This document shows positions 1,797 to 27,576 of a stretch of DNA of 64,000 nt, in pieces. The notes beneath the pieces are model-generated. The model saw nothing but the letters and a program-made list of their open reading frames with translations. It ran no database searches and was not told the origin of the DNA. The translations under genes were made by a program, and so were the position numbers. Location: assembly GCF_053078305.1 (NCBI RefSeq), contig NZ_CP166879.1; one strand, 5' to 3'. Each line of letters starts with the position of its first letter. Position 1 is the stretch's first letter.

Positions 1797-2285
1797 TTAC
1801 TTCACCCGCGCCATATAATACGCATCGACATATTCACCATTACGTAATGCGTACTTCTTACCAGTCCCTTCAATTTCAAAGCCGTATTTTTTATAGACCT
1901 TAATTGCTGGCGCGTTATCGACGAACACCGTTAGCTCGATACGAGCTACCCGCAACCAGTTGTCGCACATTTCAATCATCTCTCGCATAAGGGCGCTGGC
2001 GACGCCGCGATTCTTCCAACGGGAGTCGACACAAATACCAAAATCGGCAACATGACTGCGGCGTGGGCGCTGTTGCACGTCAATGGTGAGGTGACCCACG
2101 ACGGTTCCATCAATACAGGCAACTAACTGTTTGATGCCGGGACGATCGGCGAGTCGCTCCTGCCACATATGATCGGAAGGATGAGGCACCTGTAGTGTGT
2201 TGCAATACACCTCCGGCTGGGCGTGAATCTGCCTGATGGCCTCGTAATCGCGCGTTTCAGCATGGCGTATCACTATCTCACTCAT
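1797..2285 (-). CDS. yhhY: GNAT-family N-acetyltransferase
   Basis: Start placed at the internal MSEIVIRHAETRDYEAIRQIHAQPEV (162 aa) rather than the longer 193-aa ORF; GNAT motif RWKNRGVASALM; synteny next to ryhB. Confidence 0.85.
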   Translation of the reverse strand: MSEIVIRHAETRDYEAIRQIHAQPEVYCNTLQVPHPSDHMWQERLADRPGIKQLVACIDGTVVGHLTIDVQQRPRRSHVADFGICVDSRWKNRGVASALMREMIEMCDNWLRVARIELTVFVDNAPAIKVYKKYGFEIEGTGKKYALRNGEYVDAYYMARVK

Positions 2286-2370
2286 TCCTTTGTCCTCTTT
2301 GGGGTAAATGTCCCTTTCAACATCATTGACTTTCGAATGCGAGTCAAATGCATTTTTTTTGCAAAAAGTG

Positions 2371-2407
2371 TTGGACAAGTGCGAATGAGAATGATTATTA
2401 TTGTCTC
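2371..2407 (+). promoter_or_regulatory. ryhB promoter with Fur box (gaatgagaatgattattattg)
   Basis: Fur-box-like AT-rich hexamer repeats directly upstream of the RyhB 5' end, overlapping a -35/-10-like ttgaca...tattat region. Confidence 0.75.
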
Positions 2408-2497
2408 GCGATCAGGAAGACCCTCGCGGAGAACCTGAAAGCACGACATTGCTCACATTGCTTCCAGTATTACTTAGCCAGCCGGGTGCTGGCTTTT
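2408..2497 (+). ncRNA. ryhB: RyhB small RNA (Fur-repressed, iron-sparing regulator)
   Basis: Sequence GCGATCAGGAAGACCCTCGCGGAGAACCTGAAAGCACGACATTGCTCACATTGCTTCCAGTATTACTTAGCCAGCCGGGTGCTGGCTTTT matches RyhB as I remember it, ending in a GC hairpin plus a run of nine T; lies between yhhY and yhhX. Confidence 0.93.
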
Positions 2498-2619
2498 TTT
2501 TTGATCTTTCGTTCTCAATTTATCCTCGGGAAGTGCTTGTGTTCGTTATGCGCACTCCAGTAGGAACCACGTCCGCTTTGCGCTAAGGTGTAAATAACCA
2601 CCTTAAAAAGGACGAAATC

Positions 2620-3657
2620 ATGGTCATCAACTGCGCCTTTATTGGCTTCGGCAAAAGCACCACCCGTTACCATCTGCCGTATGTACTTAACCGCAAGGAT
2701 AGCTGGCATGTCGCGCATATTTTTCGTCGCCATGCGAAGCCGGAAGAACAGGCTCCCATTTACTCTCATATCCATTTCACCAGCGATCTCGACGAAGTGC
2801 TAAACGATCCCGATGTTAAGCTGGTTGTGGTCTGCACCCACGCGGACAGCCATTTCGAGTACGCGAAACGCGCGCTGGAAGCCGGGAAAAATGTGCTGGT
2901 CGAAAAACCGTTCACTCCGACACTTGCGCAGGCGAAAGAGCTGTTTGCACTGGCGAAAAGCAAAGGGCTGACCGTCACGCCATATCAGAATCGTCGCTTT
3001 GATTCCTGCTTCCTGACAGCGAAAAAAGCGATTGAAAGCGGCAAGCTGGGAGAGATTGTCGAAGTGGAAAGCCATTTTGACTATTACCGCCCGGTCGCAG
3101 AAACCAAACCTGGGTTGCCGCAGGATGGCGCGTTCTATGGCCTTGGTGTGCATACGATGGACCAGATTATTTCTCTGTTCGGTCGCCCGGATCACGTCGC
3201 TTATGACATCCGCAGCCTGCGTAATAAAGCCAATCCTGACGATACTTTCGAAGCGCAACTGTTTTATGGCGATCTAAAAGCCATCGTCAAAACCAGCCAT
3301 CTGGTGAAAATCGATTATCCGAAATTTATCGTTCACGGTAAGAAAGGTTCGTTTATTAAATACGGTATCGACCAGCAGGAAACCAGCCTGAAGGCTAATA
3401 TTATGCCGGGCGAACCGGGATTCGCAGCGGATGATTCGGTCGGTGTGCTGGAGTATGTCAATGACGAGGGCGTGACGGTCAGAGAAGAGATGAAGCCGGA
3501 GATGGGCGATTACGGGCGCGTTTATGATGCGTTGTATCAAACCATCACCCACGGTGCGCCAAATTACGTCAAGGAATCTGAAGTTCTTACCAATCTGGAA
3601 ATCCTTGAACGCGGATTTGAGCAAGCCTCTCCCTCCACCGTGACTCTCGCGAAGTAA
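2620..3657 (+). CDS. yhhX: Gfo/Idh/MocA-family NAD(P)-dependent oxidoreductase
   Basis: 345-aa ORF with N-terminal Rossmann motif FIGFGKSTTRYHLP; synteny. Confidence 0.9.
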   Translation: MVINCAFIGFGKSTTRYHLPYVLNRKDSWHVAHIFRRHAKPEEQAPIYSHIHFTSDLDEVLNDPDVKLVVVCTHADSHFEYAKRALEAGKNVLVEKPFTPTLAQAKELFALAKSKGLTVTPYQNRRFDSCFLTAKKAIESGKLGEIVEVESHFDYYRPVAETKPGLPQDGAFYGLGVHTMDQIISLFGRPDHVAYDIRSLRNKANPDDTFEAQLFYGDLKAIVKTSHLVKIDYPKFIVHGKKGSFIKYGIDQQETSLKANIMPGEPGFAADDSVGVLEYVNDEGVTVREEMKPEMGDYGRVYDALYQTITHGAPNYVKESEVLTNLEILERGFEQASPSTVTLAK

Positions 3658-4698: not shown

Positions 4699-5694
4699 AT
4701 GAAAAAGAAAAGACCCGTACTTCAGGATGTGGCTGACCGTGTAGGCGTGACCAAAATGACGGTCAGCCGTTTTTTACGCAACCCGGAGCAGGTTTCCGTC
4801 GCTCTACGCGGCAAGATTGCCGCGGCTCTTGATGAACTGGGCTATATTCCCAATCGTGCGCCCGATATCCTCTCTAACGCCACCAGCCGGGCGATTGGCG
4901 TCCTGTTACCTTCTCTCACCAACCAGGTTTTCGCGGAAGTATTACGCGGAATCGAAAGCGTCACCGACGCGCACGGTTATCAGACCATGCTGGCCCACTA
5001 CGGTTATAAACCGGAAATGGAGCAAGAACGTCTCGAATCAATGCTCTCATGGAATATCGACGGACTTATCCTCACCGAACGTACCCACACGCCGCGCACC
5101 TTAAAGATGATTGAAGTGGCGGGGATTCCCGTGGTGGAACTGATGGACAGCAAGTCGCCATGCCTCGATATTGCCGTCGGTTTTGATAACTTTGAAGCGG
5201 CACGCCAGATGACCGCCGCCATTATTGCTCGCGGGCATCGCCATATTGCCTATCTCGGCGCACGTCTCGACGAACGTACTATCATCAAACAGAAGGGATA
5301 CGAACAGGCGATGCGGGATGCAGGCCTGGTGCCGTATAGCGTGATGGTTGAGCAATCTTCTTCTTACTCTTCCGGTATTGAACTGATTCGCCAGGCGCGG
5401 CGGGAATATCCGCAGCTGGATGGCGTGTTCTGTACTAATGATGATCTGGCGGTCGGCGCGGCGTTTGAATGTCAGCGTCTGGGGTTAAAAGTTCCTGACG
5501 ATATGGCGATTGCCGGTTTCCACGGTCATGACATTGGTCAGGTGATGGAGCCACGACTTGCGAGCGTGCTGACGCCGCGTGAGCGGATGGGCAGTATTGG
5601 CGCTGAACGCCTTCTGGCGCGTATTCGTGGCGAATCTGTGACACCGAAAATGTTAGATTTAGGTTTCACCTTGTCACCGGGCGGATCTATTTAA
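4699..5694 (+). CDS. gntR: LacI-family transcriptional repressor of gluconate genes
   Basis: 331-aa ORF; N-terminal HTH (VTKMTVSRFL) and periplasmic-binding-fold C-terminus; directly upstream of gntK-gntU. Confidence 0.93.
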   Translation: MKKKRPVLQDVADRVGVTKMTVSRFLRNPEQVSVALRGKIAAALDELGYIPNRAPDILSNATSRAIGVLLPSLTNQVFAEVLRGIESVTDAHGYQTMLAHYGYKPEMEQERLESMLSWNIDGLILTERTHTPRTLKMIEVAGIPVVELMDSKSPCLDIAVGFDNFEAARQMTAAIIARGHRHIAYLGARLDERTIIKQKGYEQAMRDAGLVPYSVMVEQSSSYSSGIELIRQARREYPQLDGVFCTNDDLAVGAAFECQRLGLKVPDDMAIAGFHGHDIGQVMEPRLASVLTPRERMGSIGAERLLARIRGESVTPKMLDLGFTLSPGGSI

Positions 5695-5772
5695 GCCCAC
5701 AAATTTGAAGTAGCTCACACTTATACACTTAAGGCACGGATGGATATTGCTTCTGATATTGTCCGGCCGGAG

Positions 5773-5803
5773 AATGTTACCGATAACAGTTACCCGTAAC
5801 ATT
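5773..5803 (+). promoter_or_regulatory. GntR operator pair in the gntKU promoter (aatgttaccgataacagttacccgtaacatt)
   Basis: Two inverted ATGTTACCC...GGGTAACAT-like half-sites; the same motif recurs upstream of gntT at 43925-43946. Confidence 0.7.
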
Positions 5804-5832
5804 TTTAATTCTTGTATTGTGGGGGCACCACT

Positions 5833-6360
5833 TTGAGCACGACTAACCATGATCACCACATTTACGTCTTGATGGGCGTATCGGGCAGCGGCAAATCTGC
5901 GGTCGCAAGTGAAGTGGCGCATCAACTTCATGCCGCGTTTCTTGATGGCGATTTCCTCCATCCACGGCGCAATATCGAAAAAATGGCGTCTGGCGAACCG
6001 CTGAATGACAACGATCGCAAACCGTGGTTGCAGGCGCTGAACGACGCCGCGTTTGCTATGCAGCGCACTAATAAAGTGTCGCTGATCGTCTGTTCTGCAT
6101 TGAAAAAACACTATCGCGACTTGCTGCGTGAAGGTAATCCGAATCTCTCTTTCATCTACCTGAAAGGCGATTTTGATGTGATTGAAAGCCGCCTGAAAGC
6201 GCGCAAAGGCCATTTCTTTAAAACCCAAATGTTGGTGACGCAGTTTGAAACGCTGCAGGAGCCGGGTGCGGACGAAACCGATGTACTGGTGGTGGATATC
6301 GATCAACCGCTGGAAGGTGTTGTGGCAAGCACCATTGAGGTTATTAAAAAAGGCAAATAA
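5833..6360 (+). CDS. gntK: Gluconokinase (thermoresistant)
   Basis: P-loop GVSGSGKS; start placed at the TTG giving MSTTNHDHHIYVLMG (175 aa), not the upstream in-frame ATG of the ORF track. Confidence 0.88.
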   Translation: MSTTNHDHHIYVLMGVSGSGKSAVASEVAHQLHAAFLDGDFLHPRRNIEKMASGEPLNDNDRKPWLQALNDAAFAMQRTNKVSLIVCSALKKHYRDLLREGNPNLSFIYLKGDFDVIESRLKARKGHFFKTQMLVTQFETLQEPGADETDVLVVDIDQPLEGVVASTIEVIKKGK

Positions 6361-20251: not shown

Positions 20252-22717
<2,466 letters not shown>

Positions 22718-22733
22718 GTTCGCTAAAAAACAG

Positions 22734-22761
22734 AACGGGGCCACAAGGTCCCGTTTTTTTT
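22734..22761 (+). terminator. Rho-independent terminator of the glgCAP operon
   Basis: GC hairpin (cggggcc acaa ggtcccg) followed by a run of eight T. Confidence 0.7.
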
Positions 22762-22833
22762 CGCCTTTATTTCGGAAAAGTGTCCAGAGGGGGCGAGGGT
22801 TCTCGGGGAGTATAATTCCGTCATTCAGGAAGA

Positions 22834-24351
22834 ATGGACAGAATGATGCCAAATAGAAAATGGATTTTGACCTCGCTGATAATGACTTTTTTCGGCATCC
22901 CCATACTGGCGCAATTTTTGGCAGCGGTTGTTGCCATGCTGGGTGTCGGGCTTACCGGTATTATTGAAGTTTGTAATATCCTTATCACGCCAACAATTTA
23001 TCTTCTACTCAACGTCTTTATGCTGACGCTGGGGGCGATAATAATATTTTTCTCTGGTCGCGTGTGGGCCGGTGATAGCGCGCCAGAAAACAGAGAAATA
23101 GCCGTCTGGCGGCAATGCTTTTTTCTCTTACCCGCGCTATTAACCCTGGTTGGCTGGATAATCACGCTACATCTGGCAGATTATCAATTTCGCCAGATGG
23201 GAGCTGGTTGGTTGGCAAACCTTATGCTTCCCTGGTTGGGCGTTTTTTTAGTCTCATTAGTGGGTGGTGAGTACTGGTGGATGGTCATTATTCCCGTTGG
23301 GGTGCATATCAGTTTTTCGCTGGGATACGCCTGGCCGACCAGATATCCTTTATCCGGCACGTCCGGACTACGTTGCCGTAACTTACTCCTGTTTCTACTT
23401 CTCTTACTTGGTATTGTCGCCGGGTATCAGGCCCATTTATATAAGCAGCAAAATCCTGGTGTCGGTGTACGCGAAAATATTGATATCTGGGCCTGGCGAC
23501 CCGATAAACTCAATAATCGACTGACGCCGCTGCGTGGCAAACCGCAAATTCAGTTTAGGCAAAACTGGCCGCGAATCGATGGCGCCACGGCTGCGTACCC
23601 AATTTATGCTTCTGCATTTTATGCATTAAGTGTAATACCAGAGGATTTTCACGTTTGGGATTATCTGGAAAACTCTCGTACGCCAGAAGCATATAACAAA
23701 ATCGTTAAGGGCGATGCTGATATTATTTTCGTGGCGCAACCTTCCGGTGGGCAAAAAAAACGTGCAAAGGAATCTGGTGTCACTTTGCTGTACACCCCCT
23801 TTGCCCGTGAAGCATTCGTTTTCATCGTCAATGCGGATAATCCGGTTAATTCCCTGACTGAACAACAGGTGCGTGACATTTTCAGTGGTGCAATTACCAA
23901 CTGGCGTACTTTTGGCGGTAACGATCAGGAGATCCAGACCTGGCAGCGCCCGGAAGACTCTGGCAGCCAGACAGTGATGCAATCACAGGTCATGAAAAAT
24001 GTCCGCATGATCTCGCCGCAGGAAACGGAAGTGGCAAGCGTGATGGAGGGAATGATTAAAGTCGTTGCCGAATACCGTAATACAAACAACGCAATAGGCT
24101 ATACCTTCCGCTATTACGCGACGCAAATGAATGCTGATAAAAATATAAAATTGCTAGCGATTAACGGTATTACACCGACGGCGGAAAACATTCGCAACGG
24201 CAAATATGCGTACATCGTCGATGCATTTATGGTGACGAGAGAAAATAAAACGTCAGAAACACAAAAACTGGTCGAATGGTTTTTAACGCCGCAGGGGCAG
24301 AGTCTGGTAGAAGATGTGGGATATGTGCCGCTGTATAAAATCTTACCTTAA
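22834..24351 (+). CDS. Membrane-anchored protein: N-terminal polytopic domain (~6 predicted TM helices) plus C-terminal periplasmic solute-binding-protein-like domain (PBP superfamily, possibly phosphate/oxyanion type)
   Basis: 505-aa ORF. First ~200 aa hydrophobic; C-terminal part has SBP-like segments (DGATAAYPIYASAFY, FVAQPSGGQ, LLAINGITPTAENIRNGKYAY). K-12 carries only a pseudogene (yzgL) at this position as far as I recall. SBP subfamily is a guess. Confidence 0.6.
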   Translation: MDRMMPNRKWILTSLIMTFFGIPILAQFLAAVVAMLGVGLTGIIEVCNILITPTIYLLLNVFMLTLGAIIIFFSGRVWAGDSAPENREIAVWRQCFFLLPALLTLVGWIITLHLADYQFRQMGAGWLANLMLPWLGVFLVSLVGGEYWWMVIIPVGVHISFSLGYAWPTRYPLSGTSGLRCRNLLLFLLLLLGIVAGYQAHLYKQQNPGVGVRENIDIWAWRPDKLNNRLTPLRGKPQIQFRQNWPRIDGATAAYPIYASAFYALSVIPEDFHVWDYLENSRTPEAYNKIVKGDADIIFVAQPSGGQKKRAKESGVTLLYTPFAREAFVFIVNADNPVNSLTEQQVRDIFSGAITNWRTFGGNDQEIQTWQRPEDSGSQTVMQSQVMKNVRMISPQETEVASVMEGMIKVVAEYRNTNNAIGYTFRYYATQMNADKNIKLLAINGITPTAENIRNGKYAYIVDAFMVTRENKTSETQKLVEWFLTPQGQSLVEDVGYVPLYKILP

Positions 24352-24453
24352 GCAGGATAATCATATGGATACCGGTATTATTCGCCTGAACGCGGCCAAT
24401 GCTCGTTTTGTTTATCAACCGTTTACACGCAATCAGCGGAAGAGGGAGTAATT

Positions 24454-25230
24454 ATGCAATGCAGCCCCGCCATGCAGGCATTAATTGAGCAGATTTATCA
24501 TATTTTTCGTCGTTATCCGGTGCCGTCGAGATTTCATGTTTGTTGTCCTTACTGCTTTAGCGAAGAACAACAACAAGCCTTAAGAGGGGTTTCACTGCGT
24601 GCCATACCTTTCCCTTTATTACATGCCTGGGGAACAAGTATTGGTCCTACCCCGCAAAATGATGATGAGATTCGCTATTTATTACCCAGATTGTTTGAAT
24701 TTATTTCCCAAAGGCAATTTCCAGGCATTTATGAAGGCTGCTGTTTACAGAGAATAGCAGAGGCAGATAACCAGAACTGGCGAACGGACGAACTACAAAT
24801 AATTAGCGATTTCGCCTATTTATATATGCAGGATTGGGTGTCGGCTAAGGAGGTCGTAGAACTGGAAATAATATTAGAAATGTTTTATCGCGGTGGTATA
24901 AAGATTGAACCCTTACTTGACGCCATTATGTCCATTTCCGGTTACTGGCCGACGGCGTCTATGGCATGTTTGCTCTGGCGTAACAGTAAAGAATACGTCG
25001 AAAATAGCGATTTTGAGCAGAGTGATGATAATAAAACTATTACCACTCAAATTAATACCTGGGCTAGAAATAATCATCCTTTTCTGAAAGAAAGAGCGCG
25101 ACAAGCGATTGAGAACCCACTAAAACAGCCTGAACCAATGACAGAATATCAAGTCTGGGAAGACGACTGGATGATTGATGAGTGTTTATGCGCGATGTAT
25201 GACGCATCACCCGAACAATCAGGACAATAA
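24454..25230 (+). CDS. Hypothetical soluble protein, Cys-containing N-terminus (CCPYC); no family recognised
   Basis: 258-aa ORF, AT-richer than flanking core genes; its stop is 2 nt before the next ORF's start. Confidence 0.5.
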   Translation: MQCSPAMQALIEQIYHIFRRYPVPSRFHVCCPYCFSEEQQQALRGVSLRAIPFPLLHAWGTSIGPTPQNDDEIRYLLPRLFEFISQRQFPGIYEGCCLQRIAEADNQNWRTDELQIISDFAYLYMQDWVSAKEVVELEIILEMFYRGGIKIEPLLDAIMSISGYWPTASMACLLWRNSKEYVENSDFEQSDDNKTITTQINTWARNNHPFLKERARQAIENPLKQPEPMTEYQVWEDDWMIDECLCAMYDASPEQSGQ

Positions 25231-25232
25231 AG

Positions 25233-25823
25233 ATGAATAAAATCAGACTTTATATTTATCCGCTATATCTCGGCTTTGTTATTGTGCCGTTGTTGGTGTG
25301 GCCGACGGTGGTTGTTGTTGGTATCACACTGAGTTTTCTAATGGAGATGCTGTTCTCAAATTCGTTCATGCACAGGCGTATTTCCCTTCTGGAATTACAA
25401 CTTGGGTTATTGGCTGAATATACGCTTTTGTTCTGCGCCATATGTTGCGTTGGTTGGCAATTTGCTCGCATAACTCAATCTGAATTGAAAAGCAAACTGC
25501 ATTATTGGCTGGTATTTGTACCAGTTTATTTCTGGTTGCTCCTGTGGAATATCATTTTCTATGTCGCGCCAGCGAAAATTGCATTGCTGGAAAATATGCG
25601 CAGTTTCTTTCTGACCGTTGTCTGGCTCCCACTGAATTTTTCGCCATTTTGGTCTCAACCGTGGATTGACTTTGTCGGTCCAATAAGCGCACAGCTTGGT
25701 TTTGCGTTGGGATATTATTGCCAGTGGCGTAGCAAAAATAGAAGCCAGAGGAAGAAGTGGGGCGAGTGGGTAATGTGCTTAAGTTTTGTTACGTTGGGTA
25801 TGATGGCGTGGGCTTTGCGGTAA
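25233..25823 (+). CDS. Hypothetical integral membrane protein (4-5 predicted TM helices)
   Basis: 196-aa hydrophobic ORF tightly coupled to the preceding ORF; AT-rich. Confidence 0.5.
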   Translation: MNKIRLYIYPLYLGFVIVPLLVWPTVVVVGITLSFLMEMLFSNSFMHRRISLLELQLGLLAEYTLLFCAICCVGWQFARITQSELKSKLHYWLVFVPVYFWLLLWNIIFYVAPAKIALLENMRSFFLTVVWLPLNFSPFWSQPWIDFVGPISAQLGFALGYYCQWRSKNRSQRKKWGEWVMCLSFVTLGMMAWALR

Positions 25824-25876
25824 TTCCCTGAATCAAAAAGTAGGTCAGATTGTTGACAACGTGGCGCTTTGTTCAT

Positions 25877-25975
25877 GCCTGATGCGGCGTGAACGCCTTA
25901 TCAGGCCTACAAAATCATGCAAATTCAACATATTGCATAAACCACGTAGGCCTGATAAGCGTAGCGCATCAGGCA
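25877..25975. repeat. BIME: two inverted REP sequences (gcctgatgcggcgtgaacgccttatcaggcctac ... gtaggcctgataagcgtagcgcatcaggca)
   Basis: Canonical enterobacterial REP consensus (GATGCGGCG ... GGCCTAC) read directly; intergenic, downstream of glpD. Confidence 0.85.
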
Positions 25976-26037
25976 ATTTTGTGTTTGTCATCAGTCTCAG
26001 GCCAGATTGAAATCTGACCTGATCACCTTACGTTAAT

Positions 26038-27543
26038 TTACGACGCCAGCGACAACTTCTGCTGCGTATATTCCACCAGCCACTGACTCACACGAGATTG
26101 TTGATCCGCATTCAGCCACATGCCTTGTTTTGTGCGACGCCACAGGGCATCGTCGGCGCGGCGGACCCATTCGTGATCCACCAGATATTTCAGCTCCGCT
26201 TCGTAGAACTCATGACCGAAATCCTCCCCAAGGTCGCTTACCGCTCCCGCATTGCCGAGCAGCAGCTCGCTGTTGCTGCCATAAGTACGCGCGTAATGAC
26301 GTGCCAGCGATTCGGTCAGGAACGGATAACGACGGCGCAGACGAGCTGCGTAATCGTCGCGGTCGCCTTCAATGGCACCACCCGGCAGCACGCTCTCTTT
26401 CGTCCATGCCGGGCCAATGCCCTGATAATACGGCGTCAGTTTTTCCAGCGCATGTTCCGCCAGTTTGCGGTAGGTGGTCAACTTACCGCCGAATACCGAC
26501 AGCAGCGGTGCTTTGCCGTTTTCATCATGGATATCAAGGGTGTAATCACGGGTAATAGCCTGCGGCGAGTCGGACTCATCATCACACAGCGGACGCACAC
26601 CGGAGTAGGTCCAGACGATATCGTCACGGCTTAACTGCTTTTTAAAGTGCGTGTTATACACTTTCAGCAGGTAATTGATTTCACTCTCTTCAATCTTCAC
26701 TGCTTTCGGATCACCTTTGTATTCCACATCGGTGGTGCCGATGATGGAAAACTCGTCCATCCACGGGATCACGAACACAATGCGTTTATCTTCGTTTTGC
26801 AGAATGTAGGCCTGCTTTTGGGTATGCACGCGCGGCACCACAATATGGCTACCTTTGATCAGGCGAATGCCATAAGGCGAAGGCAGATGCATCCCGTCGT
26901 CGAAGAACTGTTTCACCCACGGGCCGGTGGCGTTAACCAGGCCGCGCGCTTGCCAGCTATATTTTTTGCCGGTATCGATATCTTCCGCTTCCACAATCCA
27001 CAGGCCGTTTTCGCGACGAGCAGAAGTAGCACGAGTACGAGTAAGCACTTCGCCGCCTTTACGCACCACCATCTGGGCGTTGGCGAGTACCAGACGGGCG
27101 TCGTCTACCCAACAGTCAGAATATTCGAATCCGCGCTTAATTTCCGGTTTTAACACTGAGTTTGCGCCAAAACGCAAACCAGTTGATCCCGGCAGGCTGG
27201 TGCGTTTACCCAGATGATCGTACATAAACAGACCAATGCGAATCATCCACGCCGGGCGCAGATGCGGACGATGTGGCAGGCGAAAACGCATCGGGAAGGC
27301 GATATGCGGGGCCATTTTCAGCAGCACTTCACGTTCAGCCAGCGCCTCGCTGACCAGGCGGAATTCATAGTGCTCAAGGTAGCGCAGGCCACCGTGGATG
27401 AGTTTTGAACTGGCGGAAGAGGTCGCGCAAGCGAGATCCTGCGCCTCCAGCATCAGCACGGATAAACCGCGTCCAGCGGCGTCTGCCGCGATACCAGCAC
27501 CATTGATGCCGCCACCTATCACAATCAGATCTTTGGTTTCCAT
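26038..27543 (-). CDS. glpD: Aerobic glycerol-3-phosphate dehydrogenase
   Basis: Start placed at METKDLIVIGGGINGAGIAADAAGRGL (501 aa, FAD-binding GxGxxG). Confidence 0.95.
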   Translation of the reverse strand: METKDLIVIGGGINGAGIAADAAGRGLSVLMLEAQDLACATSSASSKLIHGGLRYLEHYEFRLVSEALAEREVLLKMAPHIAFPMRFRLPHRPHLRPAWMIRIGLFMYDHLGKRTSLPGSTGLRFGANSVLKPEIKRGFEYSDCWVDDARLVLANAQMVVRKGGEVLTRTRATSARRENGLWIVEAEDIDTGKKYSWQARGLVNATGPWVKQFFDDGMHLPSPYGIRLIKGSHIVVPRVHTQKQAYILQNEDKRIVFVIPWMDEFSIIGTTDVEYKGDPKAVKIEESEINYLLKVYNTHFKKQLSRDDIVWTYSGVRPLCDDESDSPQAITRDYTLDIHDENGKAPLLSVFGGKLTTYRKLAEHALEKLTPYYQGIGPAWTKESVLPGGAIEGDRDDYAARLRRRYPFLTESLARHYARTYGSNSELLLGNAGAVSDLGEDFGHEFYEAELKYLVDHEWVRRADDALWRRTKQGMWLNADQQSRVSQWLVEYTQQKLSLAS

Positions 27544-27576
27544 GCTGCCCTCATTCACTTTCGTTAAAGCTCATAA

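What the first reader, a model, noticed from the sequence alone, without database searches (positions are those of the whole stretch)
22834..24351. Intact membrane-anchored solute-binding-domain protein where K-12 has only a pseudogene
An N-terminal polytopic membrane domain fused to a periplasmic SBP-like domain is unusual; SBPs are normally soluble or lipid-anchored. Such fusions can act as sensors or tethered binding proteins. Being intact here makes the locus usable for functional study.
Basis: partly seen in the sequence, partly recalled or inferred. Interest (0 to 1): 0.45.

Follow-up and report, generated by a model that had tools for sequence, protein, structure and literature searches.

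The report
Membrane-embedded PstS-like binding protein, intact
This E. coli gene encodes a protein whose N-terminal half is a bundle of membrane helices and whose C-terminal half is a phosphate-binding-protein-like domain; K-12 keeps only a stump of it, most other E. coli keep it whole, and it belongs to a widespread family that nobody has characterised.

Summary
Window 22834..24351 (+) is an intact 505-codon ORF between glgP and glpD. Residues 1-206 fold as six hydrophobic helices. Residues 246-505 form a PstS-type solute-binding fold (Pfam PBP_like_2, E 5.6e-29; Foldseek to phosphate-bound 4GD5, E 1e-14).

K-12 yzgL is the first ~76 codons of this gene. A 2,704-bp microhomology deletion (window 23055..25758) joins them, out of frame, to the end of the third island gene.

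An intact copy is not rare. Full-length copies occur in 3,339 of 5,426 complete E. coli genomes and evolve under purifying selection.

The protein is not a standard PstS:
- it scores below the NCBIfam cutoff;
- no pstCAB-type genes lie beside it here or in 77 related loci;
- part of the phosphate-site motif is altered, although the rest is invariant across phyla.

The membrane module has no Pfam family and no match among solved structures. It occurs almost only fused to this binding-domain subfamily, or as a separate protein beside a lipoprotein paralog.

Best reading: a periplasm-facing oxyanion receptor built into a dedicated membrane partner module. Ligand and output are unknown. It is a moderately interesting new variant of a known kind.

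The parts
22834..24351 (+). Gene 1: 505-codon ORF encoding the membrane-module + PstS-like binding-domain fusion. Alternative starts lie at 22843 (RefSeq) and 22846 (the only ATG conserved in all alleles).
22834..23451 (+). N-terminal polytopic membrane module, residues 1-206. It forms six predicted helices. Charge distribution suggests five membrane crossings, N-terminus in and C-terminus out.
23452..23568 (+). Juxtamembrane linker, residues 207-245. It is conserved in the family and ends in the WPR(I/L)DGATA motif.
   Evidence: Alignment A3. Family N-terminal sequences.
23569..24348 (+). PstS-type solute-binding domain, residues 246-505. Family-invariant residues are G250-A-T252-A, T283, D296, P303-S304, R372 and S376-G-S378-Q379.
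22735..22761 (+). Hairpin plus T-run after glgP, a likely glgP terminator. It separates gene 1 from the glg operon.
   Evidence: Read directly from the sequence. The consensus scan did not list it.
22811..22816 (+). Perfect TATAAT hexamer 18 nt upstream of the first ATG, conserved in K-12. No good -35 hexamer and no Pho box.
23055..25758 (.). The stretch missing in K-12 (2,704 bp). The junction lies in the microhomology GGnCGnGTGGG. It leaves yzgL as 76 codons of gene 1 plus about 20 out-of-frame codons from the end of gene 3.
24366..24452 (+). Remnant (28 codons, MDTGIIRLNAANARFVYQPF...) of the 3' end of a ~235-aa gene that is present in other island variants (E. coli ECE218, Klebsiella oxytoca).
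24454..25230 (+). Gene 2: 258-aa hypothetical protein with no signal peptide and no family match. In O157:H7 this slot holds a 330-aa lipoprotein paralog of the binding domain instead. The swap boundaries are about 24337 and 25192.
25233..25823 (+). Gene 3: 196-aa membrane protein, a stand-alone remote homolog of the gene 1 membrane module. It is under purifying selection.
   Evidence: hhalign probability 96.9%, E 1.6e-10. BLASTP to the stand-alone homolog P0145, E 4e-5. 83% identical to the O157 copy. dN/dS 0.23-0.41.

Best explanation
Gene 1 encodes an inner-membrane protein. Its C-terminal PstS-type Venus-flytrap domain faces the periplasm and binds a small oxyanion-bearing ligand, either phosphate or a close chemical relative. 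The binding domain is covalently attached to a family-specific helical membrane module.

The protein does not feed an ABC importer of its own. I propose that the membrane module is the working partner of the binding domain and not only an anchor. Ligand-induced closure of the flytrap would be passed to the helix bundle. The bundle would then either signal to another membrane protein or hold captured ligand at the membrane surface.

Shown:
- the two-domain anatomy;
- the SBP fold;
- conservation of most of the anion site across phyla;
- absence of transporter genes nearby;
- purifying selection;
- the K-12 deletion.

Inferred:
- periplasmic orientation;
- the nature of the ligand;
- any coupling between the domains.

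The gene sits in a three-gene accessory island between glgP and glpD. This island is a recombination hot spot in Enterobacteriaceae.
For: Anatomy and fold.

Orientation:
- The loop before the last helix is the most K/R-rich, 4.1 per sequence on average.
- 39 three-helix relatives follow the positive-inside rule with N-in and C-out: K/R 2.0, 0.5, 3.2.
- Four-helix relatives have no N-terminal tail and have K/R-rich loops 1-2 and 3-4, which also puts the C-terminus outside.
- The O157 paralog of the binding domain carries a lipoprotein signal peptide, LLAGC.

Ligand site: across 71 members from many phyla, T252, T283, S304, R372 and S376-G377-S378 are conserved in 68-71 of 71. They align with the GSTS, SS and R..SGT phosphate-site motifs of phosphate-bound 4GD5.

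Not an ABC component:
- The neighbours in the window are glgP, two hypothetical genes and glpD.
- Orthologs in Klebsiella, Salmonella, Budviciaceae, Leclercia and Brachymonas have no permease or ATPase next to them.
- Across 77 loci no neighbour family recurs, apart from an XRE-type regulator in 7.

Membrane module as partner:
- It is found only with this binding-domain subfamily.
- A stand-alone homolog is encoded in the same island.
- In O157 that homolog is translationally coupled to a lipoprotein paralog that needs no anchor.
- Pseudocitrobacter has a lipoprotein paralog overlapping a fusion whose binding domain has decayed.

Functional gene: dN/dS is 0.05-0.18 for the binding domain and 0.18-0.35 for the membrane module.
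Against: - No ligand was tested.
- The two Ser residues flanking the phosphate-binding Thr of canonical PstS are invariant Ala here. The Asp/Ser-Arg motif of the hinge is replaced by a variable residue followed by Pro-Ser. Phosphate itself is therefore not assured.
- TIGR02136 scores 118.8 bits against a cutoff of 206.6.
- There is no Pho box anywhere in the window.
- The membrane module is poorly conserved: only P23, G75, W108 and Q199 are near-invariant among its Proteobacteria-dominated, mainly enterobacterial relatives. Its helix number varies from 3 to 6 across the family. This fits a simple anchor as well as it fits a transducer.
- AF2 gives six helices. Taken literally, that puts the N and C termini on the same side and conflicts with the charge pattern.
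- There is no cytoplasmic output domain, and no partner has been identified.
Confidence: 0.5

Rival explanations
1. It is a tethered alternative PstS. The binding domain captures phosphate and hands it to the chromosomal PstCAB transporter encoded elsewhere, and the membrane module only keeps it at the inner membrane.
For: The fold and most anion-site residues are PstS-like. PGAP names it 'PstS family'. PPK2 (polyphosphate kinase 2) lies directly downstream in Leclercia and within a few kb in two Betaproteobacteria. The membrane module is weakly conserved.
Against: It scores below the curated PstS cutoff. There is no Pho box. It is never next to pstCAB-type genes in 77 loci. A multi-helix bundle is far more than an anchor needs. 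The lipoprotein paralog is still paired with a stand-alone membrane module. The phosphate-site serines are replaced by invariant alanines.
Confidence: 0.2
2. It is a self-contained, binding-protein-dependent transporter or channel. The helical module, probably as an oligomer, forms the pathway, and the fused domain delivers the substrate.
For: The binding domain and the membrane module are always associated, either fused or as adjacent genes. No other transporter genes are nearby. There are conserved Pro/Gln residues inside helices 1 and 6.
Confidence: 0.12
3. It is part of an inter-bacterial conflict island, acting as an orphan immunity-type protein that binds an incoming periplasmic toxin and not a nutrient.
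For: - Presence/absence polymorphism and very deep allele divergence inside E. coli: dS up to 0.6 for gene 1, 0.86 for gene 3 and 1.7 for gene 2.
- Cassette swapping in the island.
- Neighbours in other genera are YbbD_head lipoproteins and DUF4279-like proteins.
- In Salmonella, lipoprotein paralogs lie inside an array of Rhs core fragments, a PAAR fragment, an Ntox34 fragment and a HEAT-repeat protein.
Against: - The binding domain is one of the best-conserved parts, 35-45% identity from E. coli to Firmicutes, with an invariant small-ligand site. Its dN/dS is 0.05-0.18. That is unlike fast-evolving immunity proteins.
- The one direct test failed: the Rhs C-terminal toxin preceding a Salmonella paralog is followed in Citrobacter by a 92-aa gene, not by a binding-domain protein.
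- There are no PADLOC hits.
- No toxin gene is present in the island.
Confidence: 0.08

Closest known systems
PstS, the periplasmic phosphate-binding protein of the PstSCAB importer (PBP_like_2 type, e.g. Clostridium perfringens 4GD5/4Q8R, Vibrio cholerae 1TWY, Synechocystis Sll0540 9L8J)
   Same: It has the same two-lobe fold (Foldseek E about 1e-14, TM-score 0.8). The sequences are related. The Thr, Thr/Ser, Arg and Ser-Gly-Ser/Thr anion-site elements are conserved.
   Different: - About 245 extra N-terminal residues form a helical membrane module and linker.
- No pstCAB genes are adjacent.
- The TIGR02136 score is about half the cutoff.
- Canonical G-S-T-S is G-A-T-A here, and the hinge acidic/Ser-Arg motif is absent.
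- There is no Pho box.
E. coli K-12 yzgL (b3427), annotated pseudogene
   Same: It lies at the same locus and has the same promoter region. Its first ~76 codons are 89% identical at the DNA level.
   Different: K-12 lacks 2,704 bp, so yzgL encodes only helices 1-2 plus an out-of-frame tail. In the literature it serves as a neutral insertion site (PMC6010332; bioRxiv 10.1101/756767) and appears once in a Cpx-repressed gene list (PMC2731931).
Substrate-binding domains fused to ABC permeases (OpuA, GlnPQ type; from established knowledge and PMC2861598)
   Same: In both, an SBP-fold domain is covalently tied to a polytopic membrane domain.
   Different: Here the membrane module shows no similarity to ABC permease folds, and no ATPase gene accompanies it.
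SBPs or SBP-like domains acting in signalling (e.g. P. aeruginosa PstS stimulating the CtpL chemoreceptor; reviewed in PMC8050422)
   Same: An extracytoplasmic binding domain could report ligand occupancy to a membrane protein.
   Different: This protein has no kinase, MCP, GGDEF or other cytoplasmic output domain, and no receptor partner is known.
Lipid- or single-helix-anchored SBPs of Gram-positive bacteria and archaea (established knowledge; PMC9602780)
   Same: The binding protein is held at the outer face of the cytoplasmic membrane.
   Different: The anchor here is a 3-6-helix family-specific module. The same module also exists as a separate protein next to a lipoprotein paralog.

Membership tests
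PstS family (phosphate ABC transporter substrate-binding protein) | Type II periplasmic-binding-protein fold with PstS-family sequence similarity | tested here: met
   Pfam PF12849, E 5.6e-29. PDB profile search, 4q8r E 1.4e-27. Foldseek, 4gd5 E 9.8e-15, TMt 0.80.
PstS family (phosphate ABC transporter substrate-binding protein) | Score at or above the curated NCBIfam threshold (TIGR02136 ptsS_2) | tested here: not met
   118.8 bits against a cutoff of 206.6.
PstS family (phosphate ABC transporter substrate-binding protein) | Encoded with pstC/pstA permease and pstB ATPase genes | tested here: not met
   The window neighbours are glgP, two hypothetical genes and glpD. Five orthologous contexts have none adjacent. 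In 77 family loci, ABC ATPase genes occur only at scattered, non-adjacent positions.
PstS family (phosphate ABC transporter substrate-binding protein) | Complete phosphate-binding site (Ser/Thr pair at the first helix, Ser at the second helix, acidic residue at the hinge, Arg plus Ser-Gly-Thr) | tested here: inconclusive
   T252, T283, R372 and S376-G-S378 are invariant across 71 members. The flanking serines are invariant Ala. The hinge position (column 302) is variable, G/A/Q/E/H. Binding itself was not measured.
PstS family (phosphate ABC transporter substrate-binding protein) | Pho-regulon control (Pho box upstream) | tested here: not met
   No match to CTGTCATAWAWCTGTCAY with up to 3 mismatches anywhere in the window.
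Membrane-module + PstS-like fusion family (unnamed; defined here) | Binding domain with the subfamily motifs GATAxxP and (A/S)(I/L)GY(T/S)FR(Y/F)Y, preceded by several hydrophobic helices in one polypeptide | tested here: met
   The window protein has both motifs and six helices. Of the 80 loci kept from the genome scan, my ORF clustering grouped the family gene in 77. Most of those encode a binding domain preceded by 3-6 hydrophobic segments; a few are split, cut by a contig end, or single-segment lipoprotein-type forms.
Membrane-module + PstS-like fusion family (unnamed; defined here) | Membrane module of the same fold | tested here: met
   A Foldseek AFDB50 search with the module alone returns other fusions from Escherichia, Salmonella, Budvicia, Leminorella and Firmicutes, TMq 0.55-0.97. 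Sequence search finds 48 relatives in 1.84 billion representatives.
SBP fused to an ABC permease (OpuA/GlnPQ type) | Membrane domain of the ABC permease (BPD_transp_1) type with a cognate ATPase | tested here: not met
Anti-phage defence / polymorphic-toxin immunity | Match to a known defence or immunity family, or consistent pairing with a toxin gene | tested here: not met
   PADLOC gives no hits for genes 1-3. The Rhs-CT homolog in Citrobacter is followed by a 92-aa gene, not a binding-domain protein.

The most novel reading that the evidence does not exclude
The family is a previously unrecognised, phylum-spanning type of binding-protein-dependent membrane device. A PstS-derived domain recognises a conserved anionic ligand that is not plain phosphate, as suggested by the invariant G-A-T-A motif and a ring of subfamily-specific aromatic and polar residues. 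A dedicated helical module, fused or encoded alongside, transduces or transports in response. The device works independently of ABC, TRAP or TTT systems and of classical sensor kinases.
Probability: 0.2. Interest if true: 0.7.

Novelty: new variant of a known kind. Interest (0 to 1): 0.4.

Why it matters
Solute-binding proteins are usually understood as soluble or lipid-anchored feeders of ABC, TRAP or TTT transporters, or as sensor domains of kinases and chemoreceptors. This protein fits none of those roles, yet it is common.
- It has an invariant ligand site.
- It is welded to its own membrane module.
- It has no transporter and no output domain.
- It is present in most E. coli, including O157:H7 and ST131, and in many phyla.
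- It is missing from K-12, which probably explains why it has never been studied.

Finding its ligand and partner would close a gap in the E. coli envelope inventory. It could also reveal a new way in which binding proteins are coupled to membranes.

The locus is also a compact example of very old allelic lineages kept inside one species.

Tried and rejected
- Defence system: PADLOC gave no hits for any of the three island genes.
- Phosphate regulation: no Pho box in the whole window at up to 3 mismatches. The consensus promoter scan found nothing convincing upstream.
- Conserved gene neighbourhood: all-against-all clustering of ORFs in 80 loci found no recurrent neighbour. The exceptions were an XRE-type regulator directly upstream in 7 Firmicutes loci and PPK2 in 3 loci. 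Both are too sparse to carry a mechanism.
- Immunity-protein idea: this was prompted by Salmonella paralogs sitting in an Rhs orphan array. The preceding Rhs toxin tail has no Pfam family. In Citrobacter it is followed by a 92-aa gene and not by a binding-domain protein. The idea is not supported.
- Direct BLASTP of the gene 1 membrane module against gene 3 was insignificant, E 0.14. Only the profile comparison showed the relationship.
- Gene 2 gave nothing in Pfam, NCBIfam, PADLOC or PDB sequence searches.
- Model coordinates are not exposed by the tools, so I could not check which loops face the binding domain in the full-length model.
Full report
**1. What is at the coordinates**

Window 22834..24351 (+) is an uninterrupted ORF of 505 codons. 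It lies between glgP (20270..22717, +) and glpD (26038..27558, -).

Two more genes follow on the same strand. Gene 2 is 24454..25230 (258 aa). Gene 3 is 25233..25823 (196 aa).

RefSeq orthologs are annotated from the second ATG, window 22843 (502 aa). Only the third ATG (22846) is an ATG in every allele I looked at, because K-12 and strain ECE218 carry ATA at the 22843 position. The true start is therefore uncertain by up to four codons, which changes nothing else.

A hairpin and T-run after glgP (22735-22761) and a perfect TATAAT (22811-22816) can be read directly in the sequence and are conserved in K-12. There is no usable -35 hexamer, and no Pho box anywhere in the window.

**2. The two halves**

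*Membrane half.* Kyte-Doolittle hydropathy shows hydrophobic stretches at residues 10-78, 89-116, 124-167 and 180-203. AlphaFold2, run on an alignment of 35 homologs, gives helices 9-46, 53-81, 87-114, 126-144, 149-169 and 177-206 (pLDDT 87, pTM 0.77). The membrane part modelled alone gives the same helices (pLDDT 90, pTM 0.87).

*Binding half.*
- It matches Pfam PBP_like_2 at residues 247-485, E 5.6e-29.
- It matches solved PstS proteins by sequence: 4q8r, E 1e-18 with one sequence and 1.4e-27 with a family profile.
- The model superposes on phosphate-bound PstS structures: 4gd5 E 9.8e-15 with TM-score 0.80 on the target, then 9l8j, 4q8r, 1twy, 4n13 and 4exl.

**3. Relationship to K-12 yzgL**

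K-12 DNA aligns with window 22701-23067 (88%) and 25759-26040 (94%) and has nothing in between. The junction lies in the short repeat GGnCGnGTGGG, present at window 23055 in gene 1 and at 25759 in gene 3. K-12 therefore lacks 2,704 bp.

The K-12 ORF reads MERIMQNRKW...FFSGRV, which is 76 codons of gene 1 covering helices 1 and 2. It then continues for about 20 codons out of frame in the tail of gene 3. RefSeq marks it 'incomplete, missing C-terminus'.

glgP is 99.3% identical between the window and K-12, whereas the yzgL stump is only 89.4% identical and glpD is 96.7%.

**4. How common the intact gene is**

Megablast of the gene against 5,426 complete E. coli genomes finds a place covering at least 80% of it in 3,339 genomes. 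All are chromosomal and single-copy, with 88-99.9% identity. The sampled rows are annotated as an intact 'PstS family phosphate ABC transporter substrate-binding protein', including O157:H7, O103, O104 and ST131 strains. The K-12-type stump (first 235 nt only) accounts for most of the remaining 1,222 matching genomes.

The island has several layouts:
- gene 1 + a 255-aa gene + a ~200-aa membrane protein, as in this window;
- the same plus a ~236-aa gene;
- gene 1 + a 330-aa lipoprotein paralog of the binding domain + the membrane protein, as in O157:H7;
- up to three binding-domain genes in tandem, as in strain TA054;
- the K-12 deletion.

Compared with O157, the window is 97.9% identical up to 24336, unrelated from 24337 to 25192, and 91.9% identical from 25193 on. 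This is a clean cassette swap of gene 2. Window 24366-24452 is a 28-codon remnant of the ~236-aa gene seen in other layouts.

**5. Selection**

Pairwise Nei-Gojobori estimates among six E. coli alleles give these values:

| Region | dN/dS | Highest dS |
|---|---|---|
| Gene 1, binding domain | 0.05-0.18 | 0.65 |
| Gene 1, membrane module | 0.18-0.35 | 0.48 |
| Gene 3 | 0.23-0.41 | 0.86 |
| Gene 2 | 0.15-0.24 | 1.7 |

All three genes are maintained by purifying selection. The alleles are far older than the species' usual diversity, so the island carries ancient or imported lineages.

**6. Not a standard PstS**

- The best NCBIfam model, TIGR02136, scores 118.8 bits against a cutoff of 206.6.
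- No permease or ATPase gene is adjacent in the window.
- None is adjacent in orthologous loci of Klebsiella oxytoca, Salmonella, a Budviciaceae strain, Leclercia or Brachymonas.

*Binding site.* In a profile alignment with phosphate-bound 4GD5, the motifs line up as follows:

| Canonical PstS motif | This family |
|---|---|
| G-S-T-S | G250-A-T252-A |
| S-S | S-R-T283 |
| A-S-R-D (hinge) | A-Q-P-S304 |
| R..G-S-G-T | R372..S376-G-S378 |

Across 71 family members from many phyla, T252, T283, D296, P303, S304, R372, S376, G377, S378 and Q379 are conserved in 68-71 of 71. The two alanines are equally invariant. The hinge position 302 is variable.

The site is therefore strongly constrained and anion-type, but it is not identical to that of PstS. 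Phosphate is the first candidate and not a certainty.

**7. The membrane module**

- It has no Pfam family.
- A full HMMER scan of 1.84 billion representative proteins with residues 1-224 finds only 48 relatives. These are fragments, fusions of the same kind, and a few stand-alone proteins of ~200 aa.
- Foldseek against AFDB50 returns almost only other 'phosphate-binding' fusions. These come from Escherichia, Salmonella, Budvicia and Leminorella, and at TM-score 0.55-0.66 from Firmicutes such as Cytobacillus and Xylocopilactobacillus. A few short stand-alone proteins also appear.
- Gene 3 of the window is itself a remote homolog of the module: hhalign probability 96.9%, E 1.6e-10 over 158 columns, and BLASTP E 4e-5 to the stand-alone homolog P0145.
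- In O157 the gene 3 homolog overlaps the stop codon of the lipoprotein paralog.
- In Pseudocitrobacter a lipoprotein paralog overlaps a fusion whose binding domain has lost the GATA motif and an internal segment.

A lipoprotein has its own anchor, so these pairings argue that the module does more than anchor. This is an inference.

**8. The wider family**

A scan of one genome per species (GTDB) used two subfamily-specific peptide patterns. It gave 165 confirmed loci, of which the best 80 were kept. They come from Enterobacterales, Betaproteobacteria, Helicobacteraceae, Bacillales, Clostridia, Desulfosporosinus, Actinomycetota, Coriobacteriia, Spirochaetes, Verrucomicrobia, Bacteroides, Dehalococcoidia and Mollicutes.

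I extended each match to its full ORF. In most of them the binding domain is preceded by hydrophobic segments:
- three in Bacillales (~385 aa);
- four in Clostridia (~420 aa);
- five or six in the ~490-530-aa forms.

Clustering all neighbouring ORFs found no recurrent partner. The exceptions are an XRE-type helix-turn-helix gene directly upstream in 7 Firmicutes loci and PPK2 nearby in 3 loci.

**9. Orientation**

- In 39 three-helix members the mean K+R counts are 2.0 (N-tail), 0.5 (loop 1-2), 3.2 (loop 2-3) and 1.3 (first 15 residues after helix 3). This fits N-in, C-out.
- Four-helix members mostly have no N-tail and have K/R-rich loops 1-2 and 3-4. This fits N-out, C-out.
- In the six-helix forms, K/R concentrates in the N-tail (2.2), loop 2-3 (2.3) and loop 5-6 (4.1). 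Loops 1-2, 3-4 and 4-5 have almost none.

The six-helix pattern needs an odd number of crossings. The tight hairpin 124-169, which a simple hydropathy count scores as one segment, therefore probably crosses only once.

Together with the lipoprotein signal of the paralog, the binding domain is best placed in the periplasm. This is inferred and not shown.

**10. Mechanism**

The best-supported reading is a periplasm-facing, oxyanion-type receptor domain built into a dedicated membrane partner. It acts without an ABC system of its own.

Whether it signals, holds ligand at the membrane, or feeds a distant transporter cannot be decided from sequence. I rate the rivals as follows:
- tethered alternative PstS, 0.2;
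- self-contained transporter, 0.12;
- conflict or immunity protein, 0.08.

The immunity idea arose because Salmonella lipoprotein paralogs lie within an array of Rhs core fragments, a PAAR fragment, an Ntox34 fragment and a HEAT-repeat protein. However, the toxin tail in front of one of them is followed in Citrobacter by a 92-aa gene and not by a binding-domain protein. The invariant ligand site and the low dN/dS also argue against it.

**11. Literature**

yzgL appears only as a pseudogene used for neutral insertions (PMC6010332; bioRxiv 10.1101/756767), as a landmark of a glp-glg hot spot (PMC13185298), and once among genes lowered about two-fold in a Cpx regulon study (PMC2731931). I found no study of the intact protein or of the fusion family.

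**12. Verdict**

The finding is real and correctly described. The intact state is ordinary for E. coli. The protein itself represents an unstudied architectural variant of the solute-binding-protein theme, with a conserved ligand site and an unknown partner. Interest is moderate (0.4). Novelty is 'new variant of a known kind'.

Noticed in passing
window 22834..25823 compared with L001, L003, L012, L013: Alleles of all three island genes are extraordinarily diverged within E. coli: synonymous divergence reaches 0.6 (gene 1), 0.86 (gene 3) and 1.7 (gene 2). The adjacent glgP is 99.3% identical to K-12, and glpD is 96.7%. All three genes are nevertheless under purifying selection.
   Followed up: partly
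window 24337..25192 versus L003 4619..5613: There is a clean cassette swap. The 258-aa hypothetical gene here occupies the slot that in O157:H7 holds a 330-aa lipoprotein paralog of the binding domain. The last ~10 codons (…ASPEQSGQ versus …ASPESSGQ) are shared.
   Followed up: yes
window 24366..24452: A 28-codon remnant (MDTGIIRLNAANARFVYQPFTRNQRKRE) resembles the C-terminus of a ~235-aa gene found in the same island in E. coli ECE218 and Klebsiella oxytoca (faint DUF4279 hit there).
   Followed up: partly
window 25897..25959: A perfect 14-nt inverted repeat (CTTATCAGGCCTAC / GTAGGCCTGATAAG) of REP/BIME type lies between gene 3 and glpD. Rfam places the sRNA family ES036 (CssrF) at 25911-25953, just above its gathering score (39.3 versus 37.6 bits). 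These repeats explain the 128,250 megablast places.
   Followed up: no
L097 1..10993 (Salmonella enterica contig DBHMGN010000006.1): Two lipoprotein paralogs of the binding domain (2234..3241, 4986..5993) are embedded in an Rhs orphan array. The array holds PxxxxDPxGL core fragments, a PAAR fragment, an HExxH protein with a lipoprotein, an Ntox34 fragment and a HEAT-repeat protein. The second paralog is followed by a 108-aa multi-helix membrane protein.
   Followed up: partly
L033, L037, L045, L046, L070, L078, L093 (Psychrobacillus, Sporosarcina, Anaerobacillus, Oscillospiraceae): A conserved ~150-aa XRE-type helix-turn-helix protein lies immediately upstream of, or overlapping, the family gene. 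It has a distinctive C-terminal part (GGKVWW…QQN.SQH.RI.D).
   Followed up: partly
L010 9625..10449 (Leclercia); L011 4074..4979 (Brachymonas); L065 2207..3784: Polyphosphate kinase 2 genes lie next to or near family members in three Proteobacteria. This is the only neighbourhood hint of a link to phosphate metabolism.
   Followed up: partly
L014 6001..7849 (Escherichia albertii NBRC 107761): The ortholog is split into two ORFs (218 and 285 aa) in the type strain, so it is apparently a pseudogene there.
   Followed up: no
L101 10002..11057 (Pseudocitrobacter): A fusion protein has an intact membrane module, but its binding domain has lost the GATA motif (GEEG) and an internal segment. The gene overlaps the stop codon of a lipoprotein paralog. 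It is a possible intermediate toward the stand-alone membrane protein (gene 3) of E. coli.
   Followed up: partly
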